From Euglena gracilis (lineage: Eukaryota), in contig CP154954.1 in NCBI GenBank assembly GCA_039621445.1, positions 39,393,816 to 39,457,815 on the forward strand: a stretch of 64,000 nucleotides of DNA, given 5' to 3'. A model generated the notes under the pieces. That model was not told where the DNA came from. It worked only from the letters and a program-made list of their open reading frames with translations, and did no database searches. The stretch's first letter is position 1. Each line of letters begins with the position of its first letter. Positions 1-55,195 of this stretch are shown in pieces. A program made the position numbers and the translations under genes.

Positions 1-3000
1 GAACCACAGAACCAGGACACTGACTGGGACTGGTGGTCGAACTTTGCTTACGAAACTGGACAGGTGACCCAGGAATTTCAACAGTTCAGACACAAAACTG
101 AACAGACGAACCAGCAAACGGCAGAAACACTGCAGCAGCTACAGCAAAAAACGACGGAATGGGTCAGCGAACTGCACGCAACAGTCAACAGACAGGCTGA
201 AGCACTCCTGACAGAAATCAACGGCAGACACGAAGAACTGACAACAGTCCTCGCAACAACGCAAGCGAACATGGAACTGGTGACAGTGAACCAGAACAAC
301 CTGTACCAGGAACATTTCAACGGAATGTCACAGCAGATCGCGGAAATCAGGGAAATGTCTGGCTCAACGGGCGAAAAACTCAGGGAATTTCACAGTTTTC
401 TGCAGATGGCTGGTGGAAATGCACAGAACCAGGGTGAACATCTGGTTGGTTTACTGCACCGACAGCGAGAAAACGAAAAAAACAACTGCAGAACTGCAAC
501 AGAGAACGGCTGTGGCAGAAGAACGGGTTGCAGGAATCACAGGCGGCGTCCAAGCGGTGAACAGCAAAGTGGACGAAACTGTGGCAACAGTTTTCAGAAA
601 GGTTGAAAACCTCAGAGGCGAAATCAGCAGTGTGGTGGAAAGAATTCAGAAGGACATGGGCAGTGAAATCGGAAATCTAGCAGGACGGGTTCATCAGCAG
701 GAAACAAAAACAACAACAACCATTCAAAACTGTGATTACCTGCACAAAAAAATGGTCGAACTGCAGAAAATACCAGATCAGCAACAGCAGGTTACACAGC
801 TGAACGAGGAAATCGGCAGACTGAAACGACAGGTGGAAAACCTGACCTCCAACGAAGAAAAACACAAGCAACGCACTGAACGACTGAACCTGGAGGTCGG
901 CAGCCTGGGTCACAAGGTGGACGAAACAGCCCAAACGACTCAAAAACTGCTGGGTGGACTGCAGAAAGGTGCCATTAAGACGGGAACACATGCCACAGCG
1001 GAACAAGCTAAATGGCTGGAAATGACATCTGCCACTAGCTCAATGACAACCAGGGTCGGTCAAATGGAAGCAAAACTGGCTGGTCTGACAAAAAAAAACG
1101 GCAGAACGGGAAACGCATGACAACAGCATCCCGCAGCACTTACATGCTCTGACCACGGAACTGCAAACACAGCAGAAACGGTGGACAGAACAGTTGGTGA
1201 CCCTGGACAGAAAACACAGCACAGTGACAAAAACGACTGAGTACCTGACCGGAAAACTGGAAAGGGAAAACACCCAGCAAATCACAAACCCCAGCCCTAG
1301 CCTGGCTGAAATACCCAACCTTTTTGAAAATTTAAGCATTTCTTCTCGCCCAGCCTGCACAGGGGCCTTCGGGCCGGAGACAGGGGCCGGCCCCCTGGCC
1401 AGTGGGCCTCCCGCGAGGACCCAGGCTGGACAGCCAGGGGAAGCCACGACAGCCCAACGAACGGAACAGCCCACCCAGGGGACAGACAGGGCCGCGGGCC
1501 AACGGGGATCAGGGACCGCACAACCCCAGAACCTGCCGCCAGCCCCGAGGGGCCAGCCCACTGGGCAGGGACCCCACAACCCCTGGCCCAGCCACCGCCA
1601 GCCCTGAGGGGCCAGACCGTAGGAAGCCAAAGGACGGGGACCCCAGAACCCCAGGCCTGTCAAACCAGGGCGGGGACCCCACAACCTCTCACAGGTACGT
1701 TCAGCCAGAGCAGCCAGCACTGGGGGGCTGAAACACCACACCCAAAAATGGAAGGAGTAGCTGCAACACTGGGGACCGTTAACTCGGCTTCCATGGTGGG
1801 GCAGCTCATCCAGCAAAGAAAAAAAGACTGCCTTGACACCTTTAATTGCCCAACTGACTCGACAAACGGAACAACGACCGACTGCAGTGCCGACCAGCCC
1901 AGCACTCCCGACGAACACGACAAGCCCTGCACCACAGCCAACCCAGCCGACGCAGCAGACTCAACAGCCAGTGACGACACAACAAAACCCACAGTTCCGG
2001 ACTCGGGGCTTGTTCATGTGGGCAGACGAAACAGAAACTCAGAAAACAGCCACAACAACCTGGGTGGGACCCCAGGTGGGGTCTACCCAAACTGCCATCC
2101 ATCACATAGGAGAGGAAACAGTGGTGGCACCCGTTGCAACGGCCCCGACGGCACCCTTCGGGCTGCTGCTGGGTCCAGTGCGCGCGGCAATGACAAAAAA
2201 CCTGGTAAGACCAACACTGCAGGGGAATTTCGTAGATTTTGCCGTGAAATTTCCAATGCACCTGCAACGTGTGTCAGCCAGTCAGGGGTCCCTGACTGAT
2301 GACCTGAAACTGTCACTGCTGGAGAGCAGCCTGGACAGTGCCAGTAAACTGGAACTACAACGCAGACAGGAACGCGGTGAGAAAATAAAATTCCAGGAAT
2401 TTTGGAACTGGGTGTGCCAGAAATACGGTGGAGACACGCAATCAGCCATCAAAGACGAACTGAAAAACCTGAGACCAAAAACGGAAGGAAAACTTACACT
2501 GGAAGCGTGGAGGGAGTTTGATGCCCATTTCAAACTCCTCTACAGCAGGCTGGAAAATCCATCAGAGGAAGACGCTTACAGCCCGGTGGCTGAAAAAAAT
2601 GCCTGAAACACAACGCAGAAGCTGCATCAGGGAACAGGACCGCAGAAATCAGGACAGACCAACACTGAAACCGAAAGGGGTCACGAACATTACGATCCCA
2701 GATGCAACGACGGAAGCCGTTCGTGACCTGGTGGCAGCAACTGTGGGTACAGGTGAGAATTTTCAGGTGGCACGAGACGGACAAAACTTCAGAATCCATC
2801 TGCACAGCAGCAGAGCTGCTGAACTGCTCCTGATGAAAAACGGTTCAACGCTGCTGACTGGACACAAACCACACTTCACACAGGTGCAAGCCAGACTGAC
2901 TCTGGACGAACTGTTCGAACGGGTGGAAACTGAACTCAGGTGCCAACAACAGTCAGACTCCCTAGGTAAAGGGTACAACGGCTGGCAGAACCAACCTCGT

Positions 3001-3567
3001 GAAAACAGATCACGGTCGATGGACCGCAGGGGTAACGTTAGGGAAGTCAAGGAGGAGGAAAAAACAAAATCCAGAAGTCGGACACCACCTTCCAGATCCC
3101 GACCCAACTCCCCTGGACCTCGAACCACAACACCTGAAAAAACAAGACCCCCCTCTCCACGCCAGCAGGTGCCCATGGCAGTTTCAGAACAGCCTGGCCA
3201 GGGACGATACACCAACTGGTAACACTGGAGACAGAACGACTAAGGCAAAGGCAAAGGAAAGAAGAAATGTCAAAACTGGGGTTCAACCCAAAACTGGAAC
3301 CAGAACCAGAACTTGAATCAGAATTACGGCAAGGGCTACGATTCCGGAAAGGGATACAACTCTGGGAAAGGATACGATTCTGGGAAAGGGAGCGGGAAAG
3401 GAAAAGGTACAGGGCAGCCACAGCCACAGCCAGCAGTAACGAAAACTGAACCACAGCCACAACAAACCAATTCACAGGGGCCAGCCAACCAGCCACGGGG
3501 ACAGCCAAAGGCAGAAGCAGCCTCCAGCAATCGCTGGCACCCAGTTCAAAACGCAGAACGGAAGTGA
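1..3567 (+). pseudogene. Gag-like region of the Gypsy element: long coiled coil (1-1300), Pro/Gln/Thr linker, helical core (about 2000-2980), RS- and GKG-rich tail
   Basis: Frameshifted ORFs 64-606, 413-1120, 1194-1607, 1833-2606, 2518-3222, 3313-3567; three of them have homologous peptides in the second copy at 9960-12050; lies upstream of pol; no clear CCHC knuckle seen. Confidence 0.6.
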
Positions 3568-3789
3568 AGGGGCTGCTGCCTGAGGGTAGGGGACGAGAGT
3601 GGCGACTCTCTGCAGACACAACCGAAACAACTAGACAAAACAAGGGAACCAGGTCCAGAGCCGCAGCGGTCATACACACTGGTTAAAAAAAAAAAAAAAA
3701 AACCTCAAAAGAAAAACATCCTGACAAAAAAACGACTCCACAGCCCAGGACCGAAAAGGGAACAGGTCAGCTGCAGGTTCGGCAGAGCG

Positions 3790-4230
3790 GCTTCACGGTG
3801 GGTGTCTGAAAACTACCACGTGAAGGAAGATAAAATGACGGAAATTCTCTCACACTTCGGAGTCCAGCCCCAGCTGGATGCCTTTGCAACGGAAAAAAAC
3901 AAAAGGTTCTCGCAATGGTGGCATCGGGCAGCCCTGAGGCCACAGACGCATTTGAGAAAGACTGGCACGGAAAACTGCTGTGGATGAACTCCCCATTCAG
4001 CAAAATTTCACAGGTGGTGAGAAAAATTCAAACAGACGAGGCCCATGCACTCCTAATGGTACCCAGATGGGTTCACAGAAAGTGGTACGGAGAAATCAAA
4101 AAACTGGCAGTGATGTCAATGTTCATTTCAGCGAAAACAGAACTGTTCGGACAGGGTGACAAGAAAAGCAGGGAAATACCGTGGCCCGTGGAAGTGTTTT
4201 TGGTATGCGGACACAAAACACGGTGCAAGT
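3790..4230 (+). pseudogene. Dam-like N6-adenine DNA methyltransferase domain (DIRS-MT type) inside the Gypsy element
   Basis: YHV...PQLDAFATEKNKRF(frameshift about 3920)...DAFEKDWHGKLLWMNSPFSKISQVVRKIQTDEAHALLMVPRWVHRKWY; NSPF at 3987-3998 is one base from the NPPF catalytic motif; same layout as the DIRS MT at 19600-20030. Confidence 0.85.
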
Positions 4231-4445
4231 ACCTACCAGGTTTCCACAAACATTTCACCCCCCTACACCCGACATCCAAGGTGAGGTTCGGCACAGCCAA
4301 CGAGTACCCGCCAGTGGAGGACGAGGTGGAGGGTGGTGAACAAAAAACCGGTTTGGCAACTGAAAAACCACAGAAACACATCAGAAAAGTGCAGGAGGCA
4401 GCCACAGCGACACCAGAACGGGCCACAGCAGAAAAACTGAAACCG

Positions 4446-5030
4446 AAAATGCTGGACCTGTTCTGTGGAACAAAGTCAGTCAGCAAGGTGTATGAAGAAA
4501 TGGGTTTCGAGGTGGTGACAGTGGATTCAGACCCCAGGTGGAAAGCGGATTACCAGGTGGACGTACTGGACTGGGACTTCAGGAAACATTTCAAACCTGG
4601 TGACTTTCACACGGTGGTGTGTGGGGTTCCCTGCACAGAATTCAGCATTGCCCTGACGACAAGACCCAGAAACCTGGAAAAAGGAGACAGCCTTGCAAAG
4701 AAAGCCCTGGAAATTGTGGAATTTCCGCAGCCGCAAAAATGGTTGTTGGAAAACCCAAGGTACGGATACCTGAGAAAACGAGATGACATGAAACCGTACC
4801 CGTACGTTGACGTGGATTACTGTCAATACACTGACTTGGGTTACAAAAAACCAACACGAATCTGGGGCAGCCCTGACATCCTGCAGGTACCAGCAAAACG
4901 GTGTGACGGAAAAACCTGCAAAAACCTGGGCCCGAACGGTGGTGGTCACCTGGTGAAACTCAGCAACAAACACAACATCCCAGCCTTCAAAAAAATTCAG
5001 GATCCCAGACAAACTGATTCAGGACCTGGC
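4446..5030 (+). CDS. C5-cytosine DNA methyltransferase domain (compact Dcm-like type) inside the Gypsy element
   Basis: Motif I MLDLFCGTKS (4449), motif IV with catalytic PC (VPCTEFS, 4629-4634), motif VI LLENP (4749-4757), VDYCQY..GYKKPTRIW, C-terminal FRIPDKLIQDL after a poly-A frameshift about 4995; same ORF (3915-5348) as the Dam-like domain. Confidence 0.9.
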
Positions 5031-5289
5031 GGGGTTCCACGAACTACGGCAAACCAGCCAAGCCCAGGCCGCGCAGCAACCACCGCTGCAGCAGCCCAGC
5101 CCTGCCCAGACTGCACGACAAAACATGCTCTCACAGCCCAGACCAGAACCCGACAGGTCAACAGCCAAACCCAGATTCAACTGACAAAACAGACCCAGAC
5201 CAAAACATTCGGCTTCAAAAACGACTGTGTGAACCGGTGTCCAAACTCCTGCTGGGGCAGGCCATCAGCAGAAAAAAAGCAAAACAACT

Positions 5290-5630
5290 CCTCATCGAAG
5301 TCCGTGCTGTTTTGCCAGACGGCAAAAAAATGTTCCTACAGGCCCTGATTGACACGGGAGCACAGGCAAACCTGGTGGAAAAGAACCTGATTCCCCAACA
5401 AAACTTCAGTCGTTCACAAAAACCCCTGGCCATGATCACAGCGGACGGAACAAGGATGGAAGAAGGACTACACGAAGTCACAGTGGAACTGCAGTTTTCA
5501 TCAAGGGTGCACAACACGGACAGGACAAGGGAGTGTTCCACCATTGGAACATTCCATGATGCCGACATCTAAGTGGTTGCCATCCTCGGGTATCCGTGGA
5601 TGGAACAACACCAACTGGGGGTTTTCCCAC
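5290..5630 (+). pseudogene. Retroviral-type aspartic protease
   Basis: ALIDTGAQANL (DTG at 5351-5359) and AILGYPWM; stop at 5570-5572. Confidence 0.9.
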
Positions 5631-5989
5631 ACCTACAATCACTAGCCCTCATAGGTGAACCCCTGCGGCAGCTGTCCAGTTGGCACCAGCTGAAGGAACA
5701 AAAACACAGGGAACCTAAAATACACCAAATTCAGAAAAACATTTCGGCAGTGCGGGCAATGAATTTTCAGATTCCTGCTTAAGAGGGCCAGGACGAGGAA
5801 AGACTGTTCGAAGACGAAACAGCACTGGAAACACTGGATAAAAAACTTCAGAAATTGGCAAAGAAATCTGACAGGGTACACCGTGTTGTGGTGCTGCCAG
5901 AAGGACATGAAACACAAGGTGAAAAGGTGGCTGAACTGGTGAAAAACCTGCGGCAGGACTATGAAGGAGTGGTCTTGCAAGACAAAATC

Positions 5990-6760
5990 TACCCAGACCC
6001 CCCAGAACGCGGACCACTGGGATTTGGAAAGATTGAGCTGAAACCTGGAACAGTGGCAAAAAAGCAAAGACCCATCCACATGACAGGAGAACGCACTCAT
6101 CGACATGGTGGACGAATGGGTTAGGGACCTGAAAGTGGAAGACGGGAGGAGTGACTGGTCCAGCCCCACGTTTGCGGTGGCCAAAAAAGGTGGAAAATGG
6201 AGAGGCGTGGTGGATTTCAGAGCACTGAACGAGACAACAATCACAGATGCCCATCCCCTGCCTGGGATAGAAGACATCCTAGTTCAACAAGGACAACGGG
6301 CCATGTATAGTGTACTGGACCTCATAGACGCATTCCATCAGGTGCCACTGAGAACAGAGTCCAGACCCTACACCTGCTGCAGCACACCTAAGGCAACAAA
6401 ACAGTGGAGAGTGGTGTTCATGGGAATGAAAAACGGTGTACCGATTTTCCAGAGGGTGGTTGAGTACAGCCTGGAGGAGGTACAGGACATTGCAAACCCC
6501 TACGTGGACGACATAATCGTAGGAACCGTATGGCAGGGGTCAGAAGACAAAACCCTCGAACAACACGACAAGGACATCAGAAGGGTGATGGAGGCACTGG
6601 AAAAACAGTAACACCGTGGCAGACATCAAGAAATGCAATTTTTTCGTGAAAGAGGTTGAACTCTGTGGACATTTGCTGGGTGGTTGACAACGAAAACCAG
6701 CACCTGGAAAACTGAGGGCCTTGTAAAAATGAAAGGAACCAAAAAGGGTCACAGCCCTAC
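5990..6760 (+). pseudogene. Reverse transcriptase (Gypsy)
   Basis: WSSPTFAVAKK..KWRGVVDFRALN, LDLIDAFHQVPL, MGMKNGV.IFQR, YVDD at 6501-6512. Confidence 0.95.
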
Positions 6761-6969
6761 GGGCATTCCTGGGATTCACAAACTATTATGCCTCATACAC
6801 TCCAGGGTACGCGGAATTGGCTGCAGGCCTGATGGAAAAACTGAAAGTGAAAAAGGGACAGGGAAAGAAAGGAAGCCTGACACCTGTGTTTTTCGGTGAA
6901 AAGGAACGAACAGCTTTTCAGACCATCAAAGAAAAACTGCTCAGAAGCCCCAATCTGCAAACGGTGAAC

Positions 6970-7400
6970 TCAGACAAACCGTTCATACTCAGGGTGGTTG
7001 CAAGTGGCAGAGCCGTAGGTGCGGCTCTGGAACAATTTGGGGAGGACACTCCAGAAAAACCAGAACCAACAACAGCCATGACCAAAAAAACAGTACCCGT
7101 AGCTTTCTGTTCACGAAAGCTGACACCTGGGCAGGTTCGCTCGTGGTCTCCTAGGGAGAAGGAGACCTACGCAGTGATCCTGGCCCTGCAAAAATGGGCT
7201 TCCTGGATAGGAATGCAACCGGTACTGGTGTTGACGGACCACAAGTGCATTGAGGCATGGGCAACGGAGGTTCTGGACACCCCCAGTGGACCAGCTGGAC
7301 GTAGGGCTAGGTGGCACGAACTGCTTTCGCAGTTCGACATAACCGTAGCATACGTACCTGGCAAAGGCAACACGGTCGCCGATGCCTTGAGTAGGTGGGC
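6970..7400 (+). pseudogene. RNase H (Gypsy)
   Basis: FILRVVASG (first Asp lost), PVAFCSRKL, REKETYA, LTDH, NTVADALSR. Confidence 0.9.
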
Positions 7401-8149
7401 GTACCCCGCCACACAGGCATTCGCCGACGTGAGTATCCACGGGAGTGAGGAGGACGACCGACTCATGAAAGAAATCATCAAACAGGAGGAAAAGGAACAG
7501 AAAACGTGTATGGTGATCAACGTGGCAGACCTGGCACAGGCACAAAAACAACTTCAAAAACCCGTCACTGTGGCAGTCACAACAAGGGGGGGAGCCAAAA
7601 CGGGTGAAGATTCGCCCACAGTGCCTGGTTCAAAGGAAAACGGTGACACCCCTCAAAAAATTCAAAAACACCACAAAAACCTGCAAAAACGTCAAAGAAG
7701 TGGGTTGTGAAGGAAGCGACTGTGGTGGAACCCAGCAAAAAACTGCAGAAGCAACCCCAAGGGAGACCACGGATGAGGCAGGAAACCTGATCCGACCAGA
7801 CCAACCAAAAAAAAAAACCCAGAAAATCCAAACACGGCCGAGGGACCATCCACTGAGGAATACCCACCAAGGCGAAGACCCCTGGAAGAGGACCCTGTGG
7901 AACCCCTAACAACAAACGACTCAACAAAACAAAAGGACGCGCAAGGTGCGTCATCCTCAACGGGGACACCCGTTGGACCTCCATCAAGCGGAGTGCACGC
8001 CCCGGAGCTTCAACAGGGGGAACCGAAAGGGGTGATGGACAGGGAATGGAAGAACGAGTACGAAAGTTGCCCAAGGTGGGGACCTGTGCTCAAGGACCTG
8101 AAGGAAACGGGGTTCAAAAACTGGCCTGACGGGTACCGATTCGACAACC

Positions 8150-9220
8150 GCAGGCTCTTCAAAAACGGTCTCCTGTGTGTACCAAGCGGGTTGACTGGAA
8201 ACGTAATTCGGGAACATCACGAAACAGCCGGGCACCCAGGGTCAGCCCAACTTTGGGACCAGATGGGAAGGTGGTTTGTGTTTGCGGACCACCAGGATGC
8301 AAAAAAACTGACAGGCAAAATTATGACCATGTGTGAAACCTGCCAAGCAACAGAACCCAGCCACCTACCATGCAAGTGCCCCATTGAACCGACACCGATT
8401 CATGCACACCTCATGGACAGTGTTGCTATCGTTCTGTTCTCTCTACCTGAAACGACCTTTGAAGGGAAAAAATATGACACGTTGGCGTTGTGTGTGGACA
8501 GGCTGAGTGGGTGGATGGTTGCAACCCCCCACCTGGCCAAGGGACTCGCAGCGGAAAAGGTTGGAAAGGAAATGTACAAACAGTGGGTAATTTTTGGGAT
8601 ACCCTCGGTGGTGAGCTCCGACCGTGGCTCCCAATTGACAGCCGGTTGGTGAAAACATTGTGCACTGTACGTATCCGTGTGGCGTACGGGCAGGCATACC
8701 ACCACCAAGCCAACTGACGGGTTGAAGTAGCGGGTCAACAAGTCCTCCGAAAACTGGCAAAACTGGCTGCTGAAAAAGGGGTACCCTGGGTTGAACTCCT
8801 ACCGAACGCCTTGAAGGCCCTACACGACGTCCAAGGTGAAACGGGACTGTCACCGTACGAAATTGTGTTTGGCAGGCACAGACCGTTGGCGGGATTGCCA
8901 TATCAACCACAAAGGGAAGCGGAAGGGGCCACAGCGTTCTTGGGAAGGATGAAAGAACAAGACCAGTGGGTGAGCCTGGCCCTGAACGAAAAACAGCGTG
9001 AACGGGCTGAAACGGTGAACAGAAAACGCAGAGAACCACCTGCCTTGGAAATCGGCTCGAAAGTCTGGTATCAACCCGAAAGAAAACCTGGCACCGACAA
9101 ACTCGAACCGAAGTGGAAAGGACCTGCGGTGGTGTTGGAACGGGTAGGACAACACTCCTAGGTGGTTGAACTACGACCTGGAAACCGACAACCTGTCCAC
9201 CGTTCACAACTCAAACCCCA
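8150..9220 (+). pseudogene. Integrase (HHCC zinc finger, DDE core, GPY/F-like tail)
   Basis: HHETAGHPG...CETCQ, VDRLSG, SDRGSQL, YHHQAN, TGLSPYEIVFG, KLEPKWKGP; stops at 8650 and 9159. Confidence 0.92.
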
Positions 9221-9299
9221 CGTGGGAGACCACTACAACAAAACCCCTGTCCCCCTCTACTTTTGGTCGGGCAAAGCACAGGAGTTGGAGGTTGGCCCA

Positions 9300-9440
9300 G
9301 ATAAATGGGAGGTTGACAAAGTGCTGAACCACCGCAGAAAAGACGGAAAACTTCAATTTTTGATTCAGTGGAAAAACTGGGACCCGTCTGACACTCAGTG
9401 GGAACCCTTGAACCACTTCTTCCTCCGAACCAACAAAGAT
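9300..9440 (+). CDS. Chromodomain at the integrase C-terminus
   Basis: KWEVDKVLNHRRKDGKLQFLIQWKNWDPSDTQWEPLNH; aromatic cage positions present. Confidence 0.9.
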
Positions 9441-9959
9441 GTGGTCCAATATTGTAAGAAACAGGACCTGGCTGTGGATGTGAGAGAGTTGCTTGATGGG
9501 ATGGAGTGACGCATGTCGCAAAGCCCAGCGCTCTGTCACAGATGCCGACACGTCGCCACCCCCAACAACCCCGTCGCCAACCCCAACCCTACCACCCCCA
9601 CCAACCTCGACAAGCCCCCTTCACCATCCCCACCATACTACCCCCACCCCTACGTGCCCTTGAGGCCCAACTTCCTTCCCCCCTGTGCCTCCGAACATCA
9701 ACACCAACGCAAACGAGGCCACCCCCACCACCATACCGCCCCCACCTCCATACCAACCCCCAACGACAACCCTCACCACAACACCCTCAAGAGCCCCCAC
9801 AGCCACCCCCACAGCGGAGCCCCAGCCCGAACCCCCCACAGCCGGAGCCACCGAGCCCTCCGCGGAGGCGGAGACGCTCAGGCTGCTCCAGCCCGGACAG
9901 TTTACGGGGGGTATCGCTGCCCCTGGACAGCCCCCCAGCAACACCCCCCCGCAGTCCAC

Positions 9960-12050
9960 GAATATCCCCCCTTTGTCGCTGGATCTGGATCGGTGTTCTC
10001 GTGGCTGCTCCGCTACTCCCCGTAATTCCGTCGGAACGTGTCAGGTTGTTTCTGACATCTCAGTTCTGTTTCCACCTTTGCAAAAAAATTTTCCAGGGAG
10101 AGCTTTGTATGTACCACCATGAATCTGAATTGCTGTCCTGGGGCCAGGGCTGTGCCTTTTTTCATCATCAGCAGCTGGGATGCTCTGCTGCTTTCCAGGC
10201 TAGTGATGAAATCAGTTCCATCGGCTGTCACAAGGAACCTTTCGTCAGCCCCAAGTGTGGCTGGCACCAGCCCCTTCAAATTCAGGGTGGGTCTGTCTTG
10301 GTTCCTTCTTTATTGTTCTCGAATGCAGTTTCATCGCATCATTTCAGGCATCCATTCAGCGAATAATCCGTATGAATTGTCTGCGAAGGGGTGTTCGAAC
10401 AAACTTTAGAGCAGTTTGAAGCGTGCTTCAAACACCCTCCGTGCCCCCAGAGTCAGTTTTCCATCGCACCTGGGTTTCTGGTTTTTCAGCTCCTTCTTTA
10501 TTGCCAGCTGGGTGTCCCTTCCTACTTTCGGCAGAGACAATTCCAAAATTCCTGACACCTGGTTTTTTCTCCCCGTTCTTGTCGTCTCTGGAGCTCCAGC
10601 CGGCCCGTCTCGTCAAGGCTTCCCTCCAAAATTGTTAGTTTCCTGTCATCTATGAGGTGTCCTTTCCGGCTGACAATAGGTTCAGGTAAACGGGGAATTT
10701 AACATAAAAACCTGAAACAATTTCACTGGAGGAGCGGTCTGACCAAGTCTTTTGCCAGGTCTGCACCCACTGGTCCCATCAGCAGCCCAATGGATGGGTC
10801 ATCCTGTGCTGCAACTGGGGCGACAACCGATTCTTTACCCACATGAAAAATAAGTGTGTATGTGCTGCCGAGTTGGGGACCTGTGTTTTGTGGTCCTGGG
10901 TTTTCTTCTGTCACCCATGTGAACACATCCCGCGTTCGCGGCTGTGAGATCTGGCTAGGTCCCGTGTTTTCCCGTTGCTGAAACTGCTGTTGCATCATGT
11001 TTTGACTTCAAACAACAGTTCCCTCTACAGTCGCTGCTGGTGATCCAGCATTGGGTACGTCGGTTTCGGTCGGAGTTGAAATGGTTGGGAGTCGGCTGAA
11101 AGTTCAAACACAGGTTGGAGTTCGGGGTGATGGGTCTTTGACACGGTGTGGTCCTGTCTGATTGAAAGTTAATAAATTCTTCTTGAAAAGTTTGCACCAT
11201 TACTTTTTTATGTCAGAGTCCCAACCCACACGTGGCACAGGTTCGCGGGGTCCTTGGGTTCCCTTACAAAGCTGTCCTTGAGGCACTCAGGTCCCCTCCC
11301 TGGGCTGTGTTAGGGGATATTGGGGCCGTTGGGGTCACTGGCTGTGGTGCTGAAGCTGCTGGGAGTGGGGCCGGGGTCGCTAGCTGGGCCCCATCGGTTC
11401 TGCCCAAGCCTTCGGCTGGGGACCAGATTCCAGCTCCTGCCGTGGTGGCTGTGGCTAGGCGGCTTTGCTGCCTTGCTGCAGCAGCTGGCTGGGGTTCTTG
11501 GGTTTGCACCGTCCCGTTTGGCGGTTCCGTTGTCCGTCCGGACACCTGGACCACTGGCCCAGTGGCTGGGGTTTCTGGGGTTTTCCCCGTCCCCTGTTGG
11601 AGCCTGTCGCTGGGAGAGCTAGAGACTGCTGAGAAAGAATAAAATTGAGGGTTTAAAAACTTTTTTTGTCTTTTGTGCCGGTTCAGTCAATTTAACCTTT
11701 TTTCGGTGGCCTCCCATTTCGTTTGCCACATTTGGTTCCGATTGTGGAACTCGGCAGTCAGCGATCTACACTGCTGCCAAATTCCAAAGTGTTGTGTTTC
11801 TTGCAGTGTTGTTCATGTGATCAGGTCTGTCAGCTGTGCCTCCAACCGTGCCACCTTGTTTACCATCTGTCCCAGTGTGGAAAACAGGTCGATCCACCTG
11901 GCCTGGTCACTGGCTTCCTGCAACCCAGTCTTGAAAACCCCCTTTTGGGTTTTCTTCAGTGCCATCCGGAAGGTCTGAGCAAATTCCTCAAGTTTGTGCC
12001 CTAGCCCGGTCATTTGGTGGTTCACACGGTCAAATCTTCTTTTGTTGTCA
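9960..12050 (-). mobile_element. Inverted, decayed gag-region fragment of a related Gypsy element
   Basis: Minus-strand peptides align by eye with copy 1: FAKVETELRCQKQ vs FERVETELRCQQQ; GLLMGPVGADLAKDLVRPLLQ vs GLLLGPVRAAMTKNLVRPTLQ; LGHKLEE..QKGVFKTG vs LGHKVDE..QKGAIKTG. Confidence 0.85.
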
Positions 12051-12149
12051 TCTTTTGGAGCCAGGTTGTTCAAACGGCTGGTCAAAAGGGTTTGTTGTAA
12101 GGGTTTGTTGTAAGGGGGCTGGGCCGCTAACTCACAGACAGCTTCATTC

Positions 12150-13650: not shown

Positions 13651-14299
13651 ATCCTGTCAAATGACACTGACCTGTCTTCCGGTTGTCACCGCCCATATTC
13701 CCATTAAACACTTTTGCTAACCACCTTTCACCCCTTCATGGAACCTTGTTGGCACACGGCAACACAAAGAAAAAGTCAGGCTCCATGGGTGCAGAGCTTG
13801 TTGCTGCTGTCAACTGTTTGGAGTTCGCCAAACTGTGTCAACGTCAGCAAACTTCTTATCCTGTGCCGGATGCTTTCTTTGTTGTCTGTACGGGACGGGA
13901 CCTGGAATCCTGCCTGTTGTTCGATGAGGCGAGCGTCACTGAACATTGTGTGACTCAACATGACCAGCAGTCGTGAACTTTATTCATTTCAGGGAATCGT
14001 TCAGCAACCTCTTTTCATACGTGATTGAATGCCGTCGATCGGGCACTAACCACAACCCAGGGAGTAGTGTAGCCTTTCTTAGTGCGCCAATTCCCCTAGT
14101 TCAATGAGATGTTTTCGCGTTTCTTGGAGCGCGAACGCGCGGAGAAGGCAGTGTCAAAGGTGGTTCGGCCTCCATCTGACGTGTTGCAGCCTGAAGAGTT
14201 GGACCAGTTGCTGAAGGGGTCGAACTGGTCCAGCGCTTATGAGACGCAAGAAACCTGGTGGTGGGGTTCACCACCGGCCTCCGCAGCGAGCATGATGTC

Positions 14300-14935
14300 G
14301 TAGCCCAGTGGGGTATAATCAACAGAGAGGTTAGGTCTGGACTTAACATTAATCTCTGAGCCCATTGGGGAGTTGTGATCCAGTGGGGGTTTGCATAAAC
14401 TGGAGGGAGACCCTTTAAATCTGCCCTCAAGTCATCCACCAGCAAAGCTCCTTGTTGTAGATAGCGACAAACGAACTTGGGGAACTTTTTGTTGCTGGGT
14501 GTGCAAAATATGTACACCTCTGGGGGTATTTCTTTCTTAAATTTTTCAGAATTTTGTGAAATTTGTTCCTGTTCAGGGTATAATCCCCTGGTTCATTTTG
14601 TTCCCTGGTCAAGAGTGTGCAAATTGCTCCTTTGTGCGTACCCACACCACCTGCAAATTGATCTGTTTTTCCTGGCAACGATACAGCAGGGGTTTTTTAA
14701 GATGCAATTTAGGTGTGGCTTTTTACCTACCCATCTTGTTAAATGACTGACAGCCACTTGGTTACAACATGAAGCACAATTGTTTGTTTTGGTTTGGCCA
14801 AAGCTTTTTACAGTTTCCACTGCAGCCTGCAACTCTTTGTGATTGATATGAAGGACATGCGGGTCCCTCCACAAATCCTGCACCTTTTGGCCTGAATGTT
14901 TGTCCAGCCCCCCCCCCCCCACTTCCAGGTGCTGC
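14300..14935 (-). mobile_element. DIRS-like fragment (RNase H + Dam-like MT), inverted
   Basis: HINHKELQAAVETVK, EPGDYTLN, VYANPHW; collinear with 19280-19890. Confidence 0.88.
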
Positions 14936-15519
14936 GGAACCCTCTTGGTCGTGCCGCCCAATTACAATCTTGGGAGGAGAAGCAAGAAAGATAAAAGCAC
15001 CAGAACTACGATGCTGCTTACCACAAAACCCAGAGGGTGGCCACTTTGAGGGGGGTGAGGATATGCAGTTTATGGGGAATTCTGGCAGTACAGTTTGGTC
15101 ATTTTGCCACCCCCCCCCCTATGCTGACGTTCACCGTTTAAAAACGTGCTCAGCCCGCCAAGTGCCGGCCCTGAACTTACTGGTCATGAACACGTTTTCC
15201 ATTAGGGAATCTGTTGCAATGACACGTCTTCCATTAAGGCATCTGTTGGCAGGCACGTTCTCCATTGGGGCATCTGTGGCAACGCCAAACAAGAAGCAAA
15301 AATCGCTTTCATGAAAAATTGTCGAGTGGGTGATAAGCCGGGTGGTCCTTAACGAGTGAGGCGGGTCAGGGGCACTCTACAACTCAACAGAAGGCTAGGC
15401 TGCCTTGGAGCACTCCGACACGGAGTGGCGGACATCAGGGAACACAACACGCCTTACACAAAAAAGAGCTATACTTTTAGAAACCGCCGCAAATCTTGGC
15501 AATGAAAATGATATGCCAA

Positions 15520-16510
15520 ACCACTGTAACCCCTGTGTGGAACCAGTTCCTTCAATCTCCAGCCGACTCAACACGGTGGCGCCAATTAATGTCAACCAGG
15601 CAGCCAGGCAGCAAGGTTCTGCTGGTACCCCCCCAATGGGGTCTGTTCACCAACTGCTGTGGGAGGAGATGCGCCGCCAAGGTGGAAATATGGCCTGCTT
15701 GATAATGTCAGGCAAGTATTACAATCCCAGGAAGTTTCGATGTCCTGCATCGACACTTACGTAAAAAATGTGGAAAATGTCACGAGATATGACTCAGCAC
15801 TGAGGGCTTTGGTGGGCTAGTTGTTGCACAAAGGAGTGCCCCTGCAGGATTGCACAATCCACAGGATGGCTGACGCCATCCTCGATCTTGCGGTCCACAG
15901 CATCAACACGGCCCAAATTTTGCCCATTTCTGCAATTATGCCCCTTTTTGGGACCCTTCTGACTTCCTAGAAAACATCATCAGAAATTCAAAACCCTCTT
16001 AGAGCTATCCGCGAAAGACTTCAGAAACAGACTCATCGTTTGTTGGAGGCTTCTGGCCCTCCACAGGGTGGTTGATCTAGCCAGGACGCAGTGAGAACTC
16101 CGTTTCGTGGAATAACAAATTTTCATTTTGTTGCAGAGGAAAGCGTGGCAGTTCCCAAGGCGGGAGGAAATTTTGAATTTGTCACACAACCCCCTCATAG
16201 GCCCTTGGCATTTGTTGAAAGAGTATTTGGAAAGGACAGCCCACATGGTGGGGCAAAAAAATCATTTATAATGGTCTTTGGATGGCAAAAGACCTTTGAC
16301 ATCGGGGAGAAGGAATTCCCTTACCAAAAAAAATTCTACAAGAGGGGGGGTGGGAACCACCCATTGGAAACCCCACAGCACCTGGGGGGCTGGCGTTTTT
16401 TACTGCAAAAATGCTGGTTTGCAAGTTGCAGAAGTCCAGCAACTGGGTCAGAGGAAAAAATTTGGGCCTTTCCAGCCCACTACTTAAGGCTGGGCGTCGT
16501 GTTAAAGATT
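15520..16510 (+). mobile_element. DIRS-like fragment (end of MT + tyrosine recombinase)
   Basis: Collinear with 19880-20740; retains the YR C-terminus WKPHSTWGAGV (HxxR-like) and HYLR (catalytic Tyr). Confidence 0.85.
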
Positions 16511-16897
16511 GAAAATATTATATCCCAAAGGGGGGTGCACAGTACCTCACCATCTCGCAGTGCGGAGCCCAAATGGTTTCGGACTCCCACGACACAGGAA
16601 GAGGGAGGAAGGGACCAAGAGAGCGAAGCACAAGAAGATGGTGAGCCCAACCCTCCCACCCAAAAAGTCAGCAGAAGAAGAAAAACATCCCAACCAGAAA
16701 GGGGACCCCCTACCAAGCAGCCCCAACCACCCTCCCAGAGACACACACGAAAGAGAAAACCATCGATGGGGGGGAGCCAAGCAATCACGTGGGGTGGGGA
16801 CCCAAGCAATCATGTGGAGGGGGGGGGACGGGGCCACGACGGTTCAGCTTCGCCAAGGTGTCGGAGGAGGCGTCGACCATTCGGGCTCCGCACTGCG

Positions 16898-19800: not shown

Positions 19801-21285
19801 GGAGCATCATCCACCAGTGGGTTCAGAGATTAATGTTAAACCCGGACCTAACTTGTCTGTTGATTGCACCCCGCTGGGCTTCGACATCACGGTGGCGCCA
19901 ATTAATGTCAATCAGGCAGCCAGGCAGCAAGGTTTTGCTAGTACCCCCCAATGGGGTCTGTTCACCAACTGCTGGGGGGAGGAGATGCCCCCCCCAAGGT
20001 GGAATTTGGCCTGCTTGATTGTGTCAGGCAAATATCACAATCCCAGGAAGTTTCTATGTCCAGTATCGACACTTACATAAAAAATCTGGGAAATGTCAAA
20101 AGATGTGATTCAGCATTCAAGGCTTTGATGCGCCAATTGTTGCACAAGGGGGTGCCCCGCGGGACTGCACAGTCCGCAGGATGGCCGAGGCCATCCTTGA
20201 TCTGGTTGCCCACACCATCAACCCTGCACGAAATGCATATGCAGCAGCCTTATTACTCCCAGGGTTTGGATCATTGAGTTTTTCCCCTCTTTTGTCTCCA
20301 TTGAAGAGTAAATGGAATTCCAATGTCTGCCAGTATGCCCATTTTTGGGACCCCACTGACTTCTTGGAGAACATCATCAGGAAATACAAACCCCTCTCAG
20401 ACCTATCTGTGAAAGAGCTCAGAAACAGGCTCATCATCTGTTGGAGGCTGTTGGCCCTGCACAAGGGGGTTGATCTAGCCAGGACACAGCGGAAAATCAG
20501 TTTCGTGGGAGAAAAAAAATTCTTTTTATTGCAAAGGAAAGGCTGGCAATTCCCAAGATGGGAGGAGATTTTGAATTCGCCAAACACACCCCCCCTCATC
20601 AGCCCCTGGCATTTATTGAAAGAGTATGTGGAAAGGACAGCCCACATGGTTGGGCACAAAAATAATTTGCTATGGTCTTTGGATGATAAAAGACCTTTGA
20701 CGTCAGAAAGGGTGAATTCCCTGACCAAAGAAATTCTGAACTTTTTTCCTGCAGAATTGTTCCATTTCGGACACCAATTGCACATTTTTGGGGGAAGTTG
20801 GAGGCAAAAAAACGACAATCTGGGCACATGTGGCATTTGGCCGCAATTGAAGACTTCCGAACATTGCGGGGTTTAACCGCTGAAGTTTTAATTCTTCCCC
20901 AAATATGAAGCCCTGCAGGGGGTCTTGAAATCCCGTCCAAGTACAGAGCTGGGGGGCTGTACAATTTTGGCGAGTTCAGTTTGGCGCCCCCGTTTCGGAC
21001 TCCCACGACAGCGGAAGGGGGAGTAAGGGACCAAGAGGACGAAGCACAAGTAAGTGGTGAGGTCCTGCTTTCCTTGCCGGCTGTTCTGTCCTGGTGTGTT
21101 TGTGCGTGCGCGACGGGTGCTTCTTACTGCGCCTTTGTTGCCGGAGTTGGCGATGATGGGGCCGCGTCCGACACCTTTGGCGAAGCTGAACCTTCGTGCC
21201 CCCCCCTCTCCCATGGTCGGTCTCTGGTTGAGATGTCTTTCTTTTTCTGCTGACTTTTTGGGTGGGAGGGTTGGGCTCAGACACC
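16898..21285 (+). mobile_element. Near-complete, decayed DIRS-type retrotransposon: gag-like, RT, RNase H, Dam-like MT, tyrosine recombinase, split terminal repeats
   Basis: KIDLKDAYFQL, YLDD (18774-18785), VDNQV, LADSLTR, VDMFCT..NRKF, HANPPW (NPPW at 19791-19802), YR-like ORF 20181-20876 (similarity to the other copy lost after about 20745); block 16901-16997 repeated at 21055-21152. Confidence 0.9.

Positions 21286-21595: not shown

Positions 21596-55195
<33,600 letters not shown>

What the first reader, a model, noticed from the sequence alone, without database searches (positions are those of the whole stretch)
3790..5030. Gypsy retrotransposon carrying both a 6mA (Dam-like) and a 5mC DNA methyltransferase in tandem ahead of the protease
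Seen: one reading frame (3915-5348, extended upstream by a frameshift) encodes a Dam-like domain (DAFA...WMNSPF...VPRW) followed by a C5-MTase with motifs I (DLFCG), IV (PC) and VI (ENP), inserted between gag and PR-RT-RH-IN-chromodomain. Established: DIRS elements carry Dam-like MT domains, and retrotransposons carrying C5-MTases (DNMT5-like in dinoflagellates, DNMT3-like in a charophyte) have been described. I am not aware of a Gypsy carrying both types together, or of this in euglenids. The C5 domain looks compact and Dcm/virus-like rather than DNMT3/5-like (by-eye inference). Inference: the element may methylate its own cDNA at A and C to look like self, avoid host defence or pre-set its chromatin state.
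Basis: partly seen in the sequence, partly recalled or inferred. Interest (0 to 1): 0.92.

Follow-up and report, generated by a model that had tools for sequence, protein, structure and literature searches.

The report
Retrotransposon carrying two DNA methyltransferases
This is a broken copy of a very abundant Gypsy-type jumping gene that carries both an adenine and a cytosine DNA methyltransferase ahead of its protease, an arrangement first described in a May 2026 preprint under the name EpiLTR.

Summary
Window 1-9510 (+) is one Ty3/Gypsy chromovirus: gag-like region, DAM-like N6-adenine methyltransferase (3775-4215), compact C5-cytosine methyltransferase (4449-5040), then PR, RT, RNase H, IN and chromodomain.

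This copy is dead. It has frameshifts at about 3922 and in the A-run 4989-4995, and NPPF has become NSPF. The module still belongs to the family. A 91%-identical intact ORF reads DAM(NPPF)-DNMT-PR. Thousands of contigs from other runs cover the module as evenly as RT and IN and bridge all its junctions, and most lack the extra A at 4989.

It is not new. bioRxiv 10.64898/2026.05.21.726589 describes LTR elements of Euglena gracilis and Cymbomonas with DAM, DNMT and a chromodomain ("EpiLTRs"). No tool named the window's organism.

Added here:
- The DNMT is virus-type. It matches phrog_757 at E 1e-13, and the model's best viral match is a 218-aa Tetraselmis virus 1 methyltransferase (E 1e-21).
- Retroelement copies form one side of a well-supported tree branch, against stand-alone ~200-aa enzymes on virus-like contigs.
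- The module sits at five different positions in pol.

What the enzymes do is inferred, not shown.

The parts
1..3567 (+). gag-like N-terminal region. It runs off the window's 5' end and is spread over several frames. It ends at a TGA (3565-3567) that is in frame with the start of the DAM domain.
   Evidence: ORF list. No Pfam family reaches its threshold. A paralogous fragment with 35-55% amino-acid identity lies on the minus strand at 10022-12085. L004 has a 25% match in the same relative position.
3775..4215 (+). DAM-like (DIRS/phage-type) N6-adenine methyltransferase domain. Frame 1 covers 3775-3921 and frame 3 covers 3924-4215. The catalytic tetrapeptide is degraded to NSPF at 3987-3998.
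   Evidence: PF05869 at 18.6 bits, below its cut-off. The intact relatives P0002 and P0011 pass it at 32.0 and 31.7 bits. phrog_111 matches at E 7.6e-9 (P0157) and 1.2e-11 (P0095). The model of relative P0095 has pLDDT 77.7, and its best PDB fold match is the cap-specific adenosine N6-methyltransferase at E 2.2e-4.
3919..3924 (+). Frameshift inside the DAM domain, private to this copy or a minority of copies.
   Evidence: Frames 1 and 3 both align to P0157 on either side. Loose ends of contigs from run X1 read through with an intact frame giving QWWGSGS (table 7, place 3923).
4216..4448 (+). Poorly conserved linker between the two methyltransferases.
   Evidence: Alignment A2. Low pLDDT in the corresponding part of P0095.
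4449..5040 (+). Compact C5-cytosine DNA methyltransferase of about 200 aa. Motif I is at 4455-4478, PCTEFS at 4629-4646, ENP at 4749-4757 and KKPTRIW at 4845-4865. Conserved Cys codons are at 4902-4904 and 4917-4919. The C-terminal FRIP motif (4996-5007) is in frame 1 after the frameshift.
   Evidence: PF00145 at 25.7 bits, above its cut-off. phrog_757 at E 1e-13. The model of relative P0004 has pLDDT 85.3. Its fold matches are DNMT3A/3B/DNMT1 at about E 1e-8 and the Tetraselmis virus 1 methyltransferase at E 1.2e-21.
4989..4995 (+). A-run with one extra base, which shifts the frame before the last methyltransferase motif.
   Evidence: table 4: 'left out 1' at 4989 in 11 contigs of X1 (depth 108,720 of 191,658), 10 contigs of X2 (60,015 of 89,162) and the single X15 contig. 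Translation of frame 1 is.
5294..5488 (+). Aspartic protease in frame 2, with DTGA at 5351-5362.
   Evidence: Weak Pfam hits to RVP, Peptidase_A3 and gag-asp_proteas, all below their cut-offs. 88% identity to the PR part of P0157.
5783..6611 (+). Reverse transcriptase, split over frames 2 and 3.
   Evidence: PF00078 at E 2.5e-21.
6895..7335 (+). RNase H.
   Evidence: PF17917 and PF17919 at about E 1e-18.
7777..9161 (+). Integrase. The H2C2 zinc domain is at 8179-8358, followed by the core and C-terminal part. The region is interrupted by stops and frame changes.
   Evidence: PF17921 at E 2.1e-5. Relatives P0094 and P0089 carry PF00665 rve at the matching place.
9162..9509 (+). C-terminal chromodomain (9306-9410) and the end of pol, with stop at 9507-9509.
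   Evidence: PF00385 at E 1.7e-10.
9510..10020 (+). C-rich 3' tail. No LTR was identified. It is cut off where the inverted gag-like fragment begins.
   Evidence: Sequence. No direct repeat involving 1-10100 was found. Contig depth falls here (table 2).

Best explanation
Window 1-9510 (+) is a dead copy of a very high-copy Ty3/Gypsy chromovirus. Its order is gag-like region, DAM-like N6-adenine methyltransferase, compact C5-cytosine methyltransferase, protease, RT, RNase H, integrase, chromodomain. This is the domain set that a 2026 preprint names EpiLTR.

Shown: in intact relatives the two methyltransferases and the protease lie in one open reading frame. Inferred: they are made as part of Gag-Pol and released by the protease.

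The C5 enzyme keeps every catalytic motif across the retroelement clade, so it is very probably an active 5mC writer (inferred, about 0.7). The DAM-like domain keeps NPP[FYW] in most relatives, but its activity and substrate are unproven (inferred, about 0.4 that it writes 6mA on DNA).

The most likely role is inferred, at about 0.4. The enzymes would mark the element's own new DNA, either the cDNA or RNA:DNA intermediate or the fresh insertion reached through the integrase chromodomain. New copies would then match the host's 5mC and 6mA landscape.

The DNMT module belongs to a virus-type lineage of compact methyltransferases. The data fit a single origin of the retroelement copies (the tree is unrooted), and the module has since moved to several positions within pol.
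For: Anatomy:
- All domains lie on one strand in Gypsy order.

The module belongs to the family:
- P0157 is 91% identical over 98% of the query. It is an intact 544-aa ORF reading DAM(NPPF)-DNMT-PR.
- P0185 (1648 aa) reads DNMT-PR-RT-RH-IN-chromo in one ORF, with RT 71% identical to the window.
- 16,253 contigs of run X1 and 10,601 of run X2 lie on 1-10100 at 90% identity or more, with depth in all 30 bins. The methyltransferase bins are as deep as the RT and IN bins.
- Contigs from two other runs bridge gag|DAM (3417-4040 and 3177-3987), DAM|DNMT (4000-4753) and DNMT|PR (4684-5566).
- By summed contig depth, most of what covers place 4989 lacks the extra A.

Enzyme identity:
- PF00145 is above its cut-off.
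- The model of P0004 has pLDDT 85.3 and the DNMT3/DNMT1 fold at about E 1e-8.
- On the retroelement side of the tree, 71 of 73 sequences keep the PC motif, 73 of 73 keep E[NTS][PV], and 68 of 73 keep the K-x-T-R motif.
- 16 of 19 DAM-bearing relatives keep NPP[FYW].
- The DAM model's best PDB matches are N6-adenine methyltransferases.

Virus-type lineage:
- phrog_757 scores 52 bits at E 1e-13, against 25.7 bits for PF00145.
- The best viral fold match is a 218-aa Tetraselmis virus 1 methyltransferase: E 1.2e-21, TM 0.82 on the target, 33% identity over 215 columns.
- 61 of 65 metagenome loci carry a stand-alone ORF of about 200 aa on low-GC contigs. The contexts of eight long ones include D5/Prim-Pol primase-helicases, an A32-type ATPase and other DNA methyltransferases.
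- Retroelement and stand-alone sequences split at one branch, with FastTree support 99 on 123 rows and IQ-TREE SH-aLRT 98 on 67 rows.

Host context:
- CpG observed/expected is 0.55 across the window, with an excess of TG and CA. This fits a host that methylates CG.
Against: - This copy cannot make either enzyme. It has two frameshifts in the module. It also carries changes at conserved positions: NPPF to NSPF, KWWLENP to KWLLENP and DWGY to DLGY.
- The window's DAM match is below Pfam's cut-off.
- The preprint reports that eukaryotic DAMs expressed in dam-deficient E. coli did not raise 6mA.
- The best fold matches of the DAM model are RNA adenine methyltransferases (PCIF1/CAPAM, KsgA/Erm), with modest TM of 0.42.
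- The trees are unrooted, so the direction of transfer (virus to element or element to virus) is open.
- The preprint places the EpiLTR DNMT as sister to DNMT4. I could not test that because I had no DNMT4 sequences.
- No LTR was found, because the 5' end lies outside the window.
- Contigs in RNA-type libraries do not prove transcription.
- One X1 contig (depth 225, side 28 letters) joins 3813 to 5152 without the module, so rare copies lacking it may exist.
Confidence: 0.85

Rival explanations
1. The methyltransferase block is a one-off nested insertion or an assembly chimera, for example a piece of a DIRS element or a viral gene that landed in this Gypsy copy. On this reading it is not part of the element family.
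For: The preprint warns that Euglena DAM-LTR/DIRS mixtures may reflect nested insertions or assembly artefacts. One X1 contig joins 3813 to 5152 and skips the block (table 5). A second retroelement remnant with the start of a DAM-like domain lies in the same window at about 19.6 kb.
Against: The same gag|DAM|DNMT|PR junctions are bridged by contigs from other runs. Depth over the block equals that over RT and IN. Intact single ORFs read DAM-DNMT-PR in P0157 (91% identical), P0184, P0001 and P0158, which come from different collections. The skipping contig has depth 225, against bin depths of about 220,000-360,000 over the block in X1 (table 2), and only 28 letters on its shorter side.
Confidence: 0.03
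2. The DAM-like domain is not a DNA 6mA writer. It may methylate RNA or the RNA strand of the replication intermediate, or serve as a non-catalytic nucleic-acid-binding module. On this reading only the C5 enzyme marks DNA.
For: The preprint found no rise in 6mA when eukaryotic DAMs were expressed in dam-deficient E. coli. It also says the eukaryotic domain lacks the CD-1 and TR-1 parts of bacterial Dam. The best PDB fold matches of the P0095 model are RNA N6-adenine methyltransferases: PCIF1/CAPAM at E 2.2e-4, then KsgA, Erm and DIMT1. phmmer of P0095 against PDB sequences found nothing at E<=10.
Against: 16 of 19 relatives keep NPP[FYW]. Sequence matches are to phage DNA methyltransferase families: PF05869 passes its cut-off in P0002 and P0011, and phrog_111 matches at E 1e-11. 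The preprint reports more 6mA on DAM-LTR copies than on other LTR elements.
Confidence: 0.35
3. The C5 module descends from a cellular eukaryotic DNMT lineage, sister to DNMT4 as the preprint's tree has it. The compact stand-alone enzymes on virus-like contigs would then be secondary captures from such elements or hosts.
For: The preprint states that Euglena and Cymbomonas EpiLTR DNMTs form a clade with 100% bootstrap, sister to DNMT4 (Supplementary Fig. 2D not seen). A profile of the family against PDB sequences hits eukaryotic DNMT1 best at E 5.4e-5, ahead of bacterial Dcm at 0.04 and M.HhaI at 0.89. My trees are unrooted.
Against: Matches to viral families are far stronger and span the full length: phrog_757 at E 1e-13 and the Tetraselmis virus 1 218-aa methyltransferase at E 1.2e-21 with 33% identity, against DNMT3A at E 1.3e-8 with 18% identity. 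The family sits at the edge of PF00145, the model that an earlier paper from the same group used to collect DNMTs (E<1e-4; PMC12344493). Only 3 of 10 relatives scanned reach E<1e-4, so viral relatives may be under-sampled in trees built that way.
Confidence: 0.3

Closest known systems
EpiLTRs of Euglena gracilis (Fernandez-Moreno et al., bioRxiv 10.64898/2026.05.21.726589; Results and Discussion read)
   Same: An LTR retrotransposon with Ty3-like structure that encodes a DAM, a DNMT and a chromodomain. The host epigenome is described as heavily CG-methylated, and the window has CpG observed/expected of 0.55.
   Different: I could not show that the window is from E. gracilis. The main text does not give the domain order, and its figures and supplements were not available to me. 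The preprint says the DNMT is sister to DNMT4. Here its nearest relatives are compact virus-type enzymes.
EpiLTRs of Cymbomonas tetramitiformis (same preprint)
   Same: A chromovirus with DAM, DNMT and a chromodomain. The preprint places its DNMT in the same clade as the Euglena one.
   Different: There the DNMT is appended to the 3' end of pol. Here it lies between the DAM domain and the protease at the 5' end of pol.
KnitGypsy-DNMT3 of Klebsormidium nitens, and SymbioDIRS-DNMT3 and SymbioLINE-DNMT of Symbiodinium (de Mendoza et al. 2018, PMC5890265; passages read)
   Same: A C5 methyltransferase built into a retrotransposon polyprotein. Those authors report conserved catalytic residues and purifying selection for theirs.
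   Different: Those carry DNMT3-type or other DNMTs and no DAM. The enzyme here is an enzyme of about 200 aa with a tiny, Cys-rich target-recognition region.
DAM-like domain of DIRS retrotransposons (PF05869-type)
   Same: The same small NPP[FY] domain with the D-x-F-A start. Phage-type matches are PF05869 and phrog_111.
   Different: The element here has a DDE integrase with an H2C2 zinc domain and a chromodomain, in the order PR-RT-RH-IN. It does not have the tyrosine recombinase of DIRS.
Compact viral C5 methyltransferases: phrog_757 and the putative cytosine DNA methyltransferase of Tetraselmis virus 1 (A0A2P0VN45)
   Same: The same length of about 200-220 aa and the same motif set. The fold match spans the full length (E 1.2e-21, TM 0.82 on the target, 33% identity). 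Stand-alone relatives lie on virus-like metagenome contigs.
   Different: Those are free-standing genes of DNA viruses. Here the enzyme is a domain of a retrotransposon polyprotein, and the retroelement copies form their own side of the tree.

Membership tests
C5 cytosine DNA methyltransferase (PF00145 superfamily) | Pfam model reaches its gathering score | tested here: met
   25.7 bits against a cut-off of 22, E 9.5e-6. Only profile positions 2-111 of 324 are covered.
C5 cytosine DNA methyltransferase (PF00145 superfamily) | Catalytic motifs (names recalled): I (F-x-G-x-G type), IV (P-C), VI (E-N-V type), VIII (R-containing) | tested here: met
   DLFCGTKS, PCTEFS, ENP and KKPTRIW are all present in the window. 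On the retroelement side of the tree, PC is kept in 71 of 73 sequences and E[NTS][PV] in 73 of 73.
C5 cytosine DNA methyltransferase (PF00145 superfamily) | Intact C-terminal motif in frame | tested here: not met
   In this copy the FRIP motif follows a frameshift in the A-run 4989-4995. It is in frame in P0157, P0004 and P0001.
C5 cytosine DNA methyltransferase (PF00145 superfamily) | DNMT fold | tested here: met
   Tested on relative P0004, which is 64% identical to the window, not on the window copy itself. pLDDT is 85.3. Foldseek probability is 1.00 to DNMT3A/3B/DNMT1 at about E 1e-8.
Dam / DIRS-type DAM domain (PF05869) | Pfam model reaches its gathering score | tested here: not met
   The window scores 18.6 bits against a cut-off of 28.1. 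Relatives P0002 (32.0) and P0011 (31.7) pass, and P0001 (27.0) just fails.
Dam / DIRS-type DAM domain (PF05869) | Asn-Pro-Pro-aromatic catalytic motif | tested here: not met
   The window has NSPF at 3987-3998. 16 of 19 relatives keep NPP[FYW], including the 91%-identical P0157.
Dam / DIRS-type DAM domain (PF05869) | N6-adenine methyltransferase activity on DNA | not testable with these tools
   The preprint's E. coli assay was negative. The fold of the P0095 model resembles N6-adenine methyltransferases that act on RNA.
Ty3/Gypsy chromovirus | Order PR-RT-RNase H-IN, with a chromodomain at the C-terminus of IN | tested here: met
   Pfam hits fall in that order on the + strand. Chromo scores E 1.7e-10.
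Ty3/Gypsy chromovirus | Long terminal repeats flanking the element | not testable with these tools
   The 5' end lies outside the window. No direct repeat involving 1-10100 was found. No genome is held.
EpiLTR (preprint 10.64898/2026.05.21.726589) | DAM, DNMT and chromodomain in one LTR retrotransposon | tested here: met
EpiLTR (preprint 10.64898/2026.05.21.726589) | Host is Euglena gracilis or Cymbomonas tetramitiformis | not testable with these tools
   Organism names are coded. No genome is held.
EpiLTR (preprint 10.64898/2026.05.21.726589) | DNMT belongs to the clade sister to DNMT4 | not tested
Supplementary Fig. 2D was not seen.
DIRS retrotransposon | Tyrosine recombinase in place of a DDE integrase | tested here: not met
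   Integrase_H2C2 is present in the window. Relatives carry rve at the matching place.

The most novel reading that the evidence does not exclude
The cytosine methyltransferase of these elements is not a cellular DNMT offshoot. It belongs to a lineage of compact (about 200 aa) C5 enzymes of large DNA viruses of algae and protists, with the Tetraselmis virus 1 enzyme as the nearest named relative. A chromovirus captured it once. It was then shuffled to at least five positions in pol:
- DAM-DNMT-PR
- DNMT-PR without DAM
- DAM-PR-DNMT
- PR-DNMT-DAM
- RH-DNMT-IN

The clade is far more widespread in environmental protists than the two species reported so far.

A bolder corollary concerns the two named hosts. 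Cymbomonas belongs to the Pyramimonadales, and euglenophyte plastids come from that order (PMC5784168, abstract and passages read). The module may therefore have reached euglenids along with, or through viruses of, the green-algal endosymbiont. The preprint's main text holds none of the words endosymbio-, plastid, Pyramimonad-, Tetraselmis or 'viral origin'.
Probability: 0.4. Interest if true: 0.6.

Novelty: already known. Interest (0 to 1): 0.4.

Why it matters
Retrotransposons that carry their own writers for both 5mC and 6mA, plus a chromatin reader, would be able to set their own epigenetic state rather than merely suffer host silencing. That is why the class drew attention when it was described in 2026.

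This window adds a clean example and three pieces of context:
- The family is extremely abundant, and the module is an integral part of it.
- The DNMT is of a compact viral type that PF00145-based screens mostly miss. Only 3 of 10 relatives reach E<1e-4.
- The module has been moved around within pol many times, which argues that it is kept because it is useful to the element.

Tried and rejected
- **Whole genome:** none is held, so copies could not be collected, no LTR pair could be found and no Ka/Ks could be computed. The DNA of the 91%-identical relative P0157 was not among the 65 loci fetched.
- **Rfam on the window:** no match.
- **Earlier scan notes:** nothing by place, by sequence or by words.
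- **phmmer of the window ORF against PDB sequences:** only a chance-level match at E 0.48.
- **phmmer of P0095 against PDB:** nothing.
- **The search for related loci with the 13-row alignment A2:** answered that no stretch was conserved enough. The 6-row alignment A3 worked.
- **Naming the organism:** run names are coded. The closest proteins have no organism. The one named relative, P0011, is filed under the plant Genlisea aurea (EPS62093.1), which I do not take as the true host.
- **Looking for host genes:** a Pfam scan of 104 ORFs from 10-64 kb (104 of the 120 ORFs of at least 120 aa that passed a complexity filter; 16 in repeat arrays were left out) gave only one IBR hit. That is too short to place the host.
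- **Depth:** it is summed over contigs and is not a copy number, so I use it only to compare parts of the element.
- **Contigs in RNA-type runs X15 and X20:** they lie on the element, but this does not show transcription or habitat.
- **The single contig joining 3813 to 5152:** too weak (28 letters on one side) to claim a module-less subfamily.
- **hhalign of window 19469-20077 against A5:** circular, because that sequence is a row of A5. The non-circular BLASTP gave E 1e-4.
- **Phage or eukaryotic virus:** whether the stand-alone contigs are one or the other was not settled. Among the 25 PHROG families listed (of 42 matched), none is a structural protein, and most of the 86 ORFs match nothing.
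Full report
**What is in the sequence**

The + strand of window 1-9510 carries one retroelement. Stop-to-stop ORFs and Pfam give the following, in order:
- a gag-like region with no family match (1-3567)
- a weak Dam match (PF05869, 18.6 bits, below its cut-off of 28.1)
- a C5 DNA methylase match above its cut-off (PF00145, 25.7 bits against 22, E 9.5e-6)
- weak aspartic protease matches
- RVT_1 (E 2.5e-21)
- RNase H (E about 1e-18)
- the integrase H2C2 zinc domain (E 2e-5)
- a chromodomain (E 1.7e-10)

The coding strand is strongly A-rich, at A 33% and T 15%.

**State of this copy**

The copy is broken.
- The DAM domain begins in frame 1 (about 3775-3921) and continues in frame 3 from 3924.
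- The methyltransferase's last motif (FRIPDKLIQDL, 4996-5028) is in frame 1, after an A-run at 4989-4995.
- The protease is in frame 2, and RT, RNase H and IN change frame again.
- Against the intact relative P0157, the window copy has changes at conserved positions: NPPF to NSPF, KWWLENP to KWLLENP and DWGY to DLGY.

**Is the module part of the family?**

Yes. Four lines of evidence agree.

1. A search of 5.8 billion proteins found P0157. It is 544 aa, 91% identical over 98% of the query, and reads DAM (with NPPF), DNMT and the start of the protease in one open frame.
2. P0184, P0001 and P0158 have the same order at 40-45% identity. P0185 (1648 aa) reads DNMT-PR-RT-RH-IN-chromo in one frame, with RT 71% identical to the window.
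3. Contigs of four public runs were laid on 1-10100 at 90% identity or more. 16,253 contigs of X1 and 10,601 of X2 lay on it, with depth in all 30 bins. The bins over the module are as deep as those over RT and IN. Contigs from two further runs bridge gag|DAM, DAM|DNMT and DNMT|PR.
4. By summed contig depth, most of what covers place 4989 lacks one A: 108,720 of 191,658 in X1 and 60,015 of 89,162 in X2. That puts the FRIP motif back in frame. Loose ends at 3923 read through the first frameshift with an intact frame.

One contig of low depth joins 3813 to 5152 without the module. With only 28 letters on one side, I do not build on it.

**What the two domains are**

*The C5 domain.* An alignment of 50 relatives shows conserved motifs: DLF[SC]GTGS, PPCTE[FY]S, LENP, [QK]KPTR[IF]W and a C-terminal YRIP. 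Between the last two lies a very short region holding conserved Cys and His residues. These are C341, C368, C373 and H383 in P0157 numbering, invariant in the six full-length sequences. That this region binds zinc is my inference.

A model of P0004, which is 64% identical to the window, has pLDDT 85.3. It matches the catalytic domains of DNMT3A/3B and DNMT1 in the PDB at about E 1e-8, TM about 0.48 and 18% identity.

The viral library gives a much better match over the full length. It is the 218-aa putative cytosine methyltransferase of Tetraselmis virus 1, a giant virus, at E 1.2e-21, TM 0.82 on the target, rmsd 2.3 and 33% identity over 215 columns.

By sequence, the phage family phrog_757 matches the window's domain at E 1e-13 and 52 bits. 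That is far better than PF00145.

*The DAM domain.* It matches phrog_111 at E 7.6e-9 for P0157 and 1.2e-11 for P0095. A model of P0095 has pLDDT 77.7. Its best PDB matches are N6-adenine methyltransferases: the cap-specific adenosine methyltransferase at E 2.2e-4, then KsgA, Erm and DIMT1.

**Relatives and their arrangement**

phmmer against 1.84 billion representatives gave 3015 hits at E<=1e-3. Among intact predicted proteins, the methyltransferases sit at five different places:
- DAM-DNMT-PR: P0157, P0184, P0001, P0158
- DNMT-PR-RT... with no DAM found upstream: P0094, P0186, L004
- DAM-PR-DNMT: P0011, P0096
- PR-DNMT-DAM: P0007, with P0069 showing DNMT-DAM
- RH-DNMT-IN: P0154, P0187, P0188, P0161

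A scan of JGI metagenome contigs gave 65 loci. Four are retroelements (L001-L004). The other 61 carry only the methyltransferase; where examined it is a free-standing ORF of about 200 aa, and the 19 of them whose composition was computed are low-GC (0.25-0.46).

I scanned 86 ORFs from the eight long contigs. Pfam found D5_N, PriCT_2, Prim-Pol, DUF5906, Pox_A32, PIF1-type helicase, HNH and three N6_N4 methylases, and nothing cellular. PHROGs listed no structural protein among its first 25 of 42 families. I call these contigs virus-like. Whether they are phages or eukaryotic viruses is open.

**Tree**

130 full-length domains were extracted with a profile, of which 123 are distinct.
- A FastTree tree splits them at one branch (support 99). 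One side holds 50 rows: all 30 stand-alone contig rows and none of the 41 rows labelled as retroelement. The other side holds 73 rows: all 41 retroelement rows and no stand-alone contig row.
- An IQ-TREE quick search used 67 of these rows, 36 retroelement and 31 stand-alone. I left out the 30 unlabelled rows and 26 further labelled rows (5 retroelement-labelled, 21 stand-alone). It gives the same single split with SH-aLRT 98.

The trees are unrooted. They show that all retroelement copies, whatever their position in pol, are one group apart from the stand-alone enzymes. They do not show the direction of transfer.

On the retroelement side, 71 of 73 sequences keep the PC motif and 73 of 73 keep E[NTS][PV]. 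16 of 19 DAM-bearing proteins keep NPP[FYW].

**What is already in print**

A full-text search found bioRxiv 10.64898/2026.05.21.726589 (Fernandez-Moreno et al., May 2026). I read its abstract, Results and Discussion and searched its main text for terms. Figures and supplements were not available. It reports:
- DAM domains in Ty3/Gypsy-like LTR elements of several lineages
- "EpiLTRs" in Euglena gracilis and Cymbomonas tetramitiformis, which combine DAM, DNMT and a chromodomain
- a DNMT shared by the two hosts and sister to DNMT4
- no rise in 6mA when eukaryotic DAMs were expressed in E. coli
- more 6mA on DAM-LTR copies than on other LTR elements
- a Euglena genome with 5mC as the default state at CG

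Earlier work (PMC5890265, passages read) described DNMT3-type enzymes in a Klebsormidium Gypsy element and in Symbiodinium DIRS and LINE elements, none with a DAM.

PMC12344493 (passages read) collected DNMTs with PF00145 at E<1e-4. Only 3 of the 10 relatives I scanned reach that value, so this family is easy to under-sample.

**What remains open**

- No tool named the organism.
- The window-wide CpG observed/expected of 0.55, with TG and CA in excess, fits a CG-methylating host but is not specific.
- I could not test the DNMT4 placement, compute Ka/Ks or find the LTRs.

**How it most likely works**

Shown:
- The two methyltransferases and the protease share one reading frame in intact members.
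- The catalytic motifs are conserved across a large, diverse retroelement clade.

Inferred:
- The enzymes are released from Gag-Pol by the protease.
- The C5 enzyme is active (about 0.7).
- The DAM-like domain writes 6mA on DNA or on the RNA:DNA intermediate (about 0.4).
- The pair marks the element's own new DNA so that fresh copies fit the host's 5mC and 6mA landscape (about 0.4).

**Verdict**

This is a real, well-supported feature that was correctly read by the first stage. As a class it has already been described. The added value here is the virus-type affinity of the DNMT, its single grouping across elements, and its repeated repositioning within pol.

Noticed in passing
window 10022-12085 (-): A truncated gag-like fragment of a related but distinct element, 35-55% amino-acid identity to 290-3222. 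It lies tail-to-tail against the 3' tail of the main element. No methyltransferase or pol follows it, so one element probably interrupted the other.
   Followed up: partly
window 14286-21151: A second retroelement remnant. It has direct repeats about 4.3-4.4 kb apart (15661-16997 against 19977-21151, 81-93% identity) and an inverted pair (14286-14489 against 19693-19896). It gives sub-threshold RVT_1 hits at 18262-18893. It also shows the first 40 or so residues of a DAM-like domain near 19590-19720 (BLASTP to P0095, E 1e-4). The repeat layout recalls DIRS elements, but no recombinase was looked for.
   Followed up: partly
window 3565-3567: A single TGA separates the gag-like frame from the start of the DAM domain in the same frame (frame 1). 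It could be a read-through gag-pol boundary or just another mutation of this dead copy.
   Followed up: no
window 45159-45803 (+): The only Pfam match among 104 ORFs scanned from 10-64 kb is an IBR half-RING domain, at E 5.5e-5 and just under its cut-off. It may be an exon of a host RBR-type ubiquitin ligase.
   Followed up: no
window 25115-26416; 53381-54031 with 54942-55079: An array of 11 copies of a 112-bp tandem repeat. Separately, long low-complexity microsatellite arrays form inverted repeats about 1.4 kb apart.
   Followed up: no
whole window; element 1-9510: CpG observed/expected is 0.55 window-wide, with TG and CA at about 1.25. Inside the element, ApT observed/expected is 0.60 against 0.83-0.86 elsewhere, and the coding strand has A 33% and T 15%.
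   Followed up: no
P0129 (261 aa; stand-alone side of the tree): This relative carries a Cys/His-rich N-terminal extension of about 50 residues, which looks like a PHD-type finger by eye, in front of the compact methyltransferase. It was not checked against Pfam.
   Followed up: no
L010:9995-11250: This virus-like contig carries two of the compact methyltransferase genes in tandem, of 202 and 214 aa. They fall in different parts of the stand-alone clade.
   Followed up: no
P0011 (NCBI EPS62093.1): A DAM-PR-DNMT retroelement protein is filed in NCBI as a hypothetical protein of the carnivorous plant Genlisea aurea, on a 2.5-kb contig. It may come from an organism living with the plant rather than from the plant itself. 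This was not tested.
   Followed up: no
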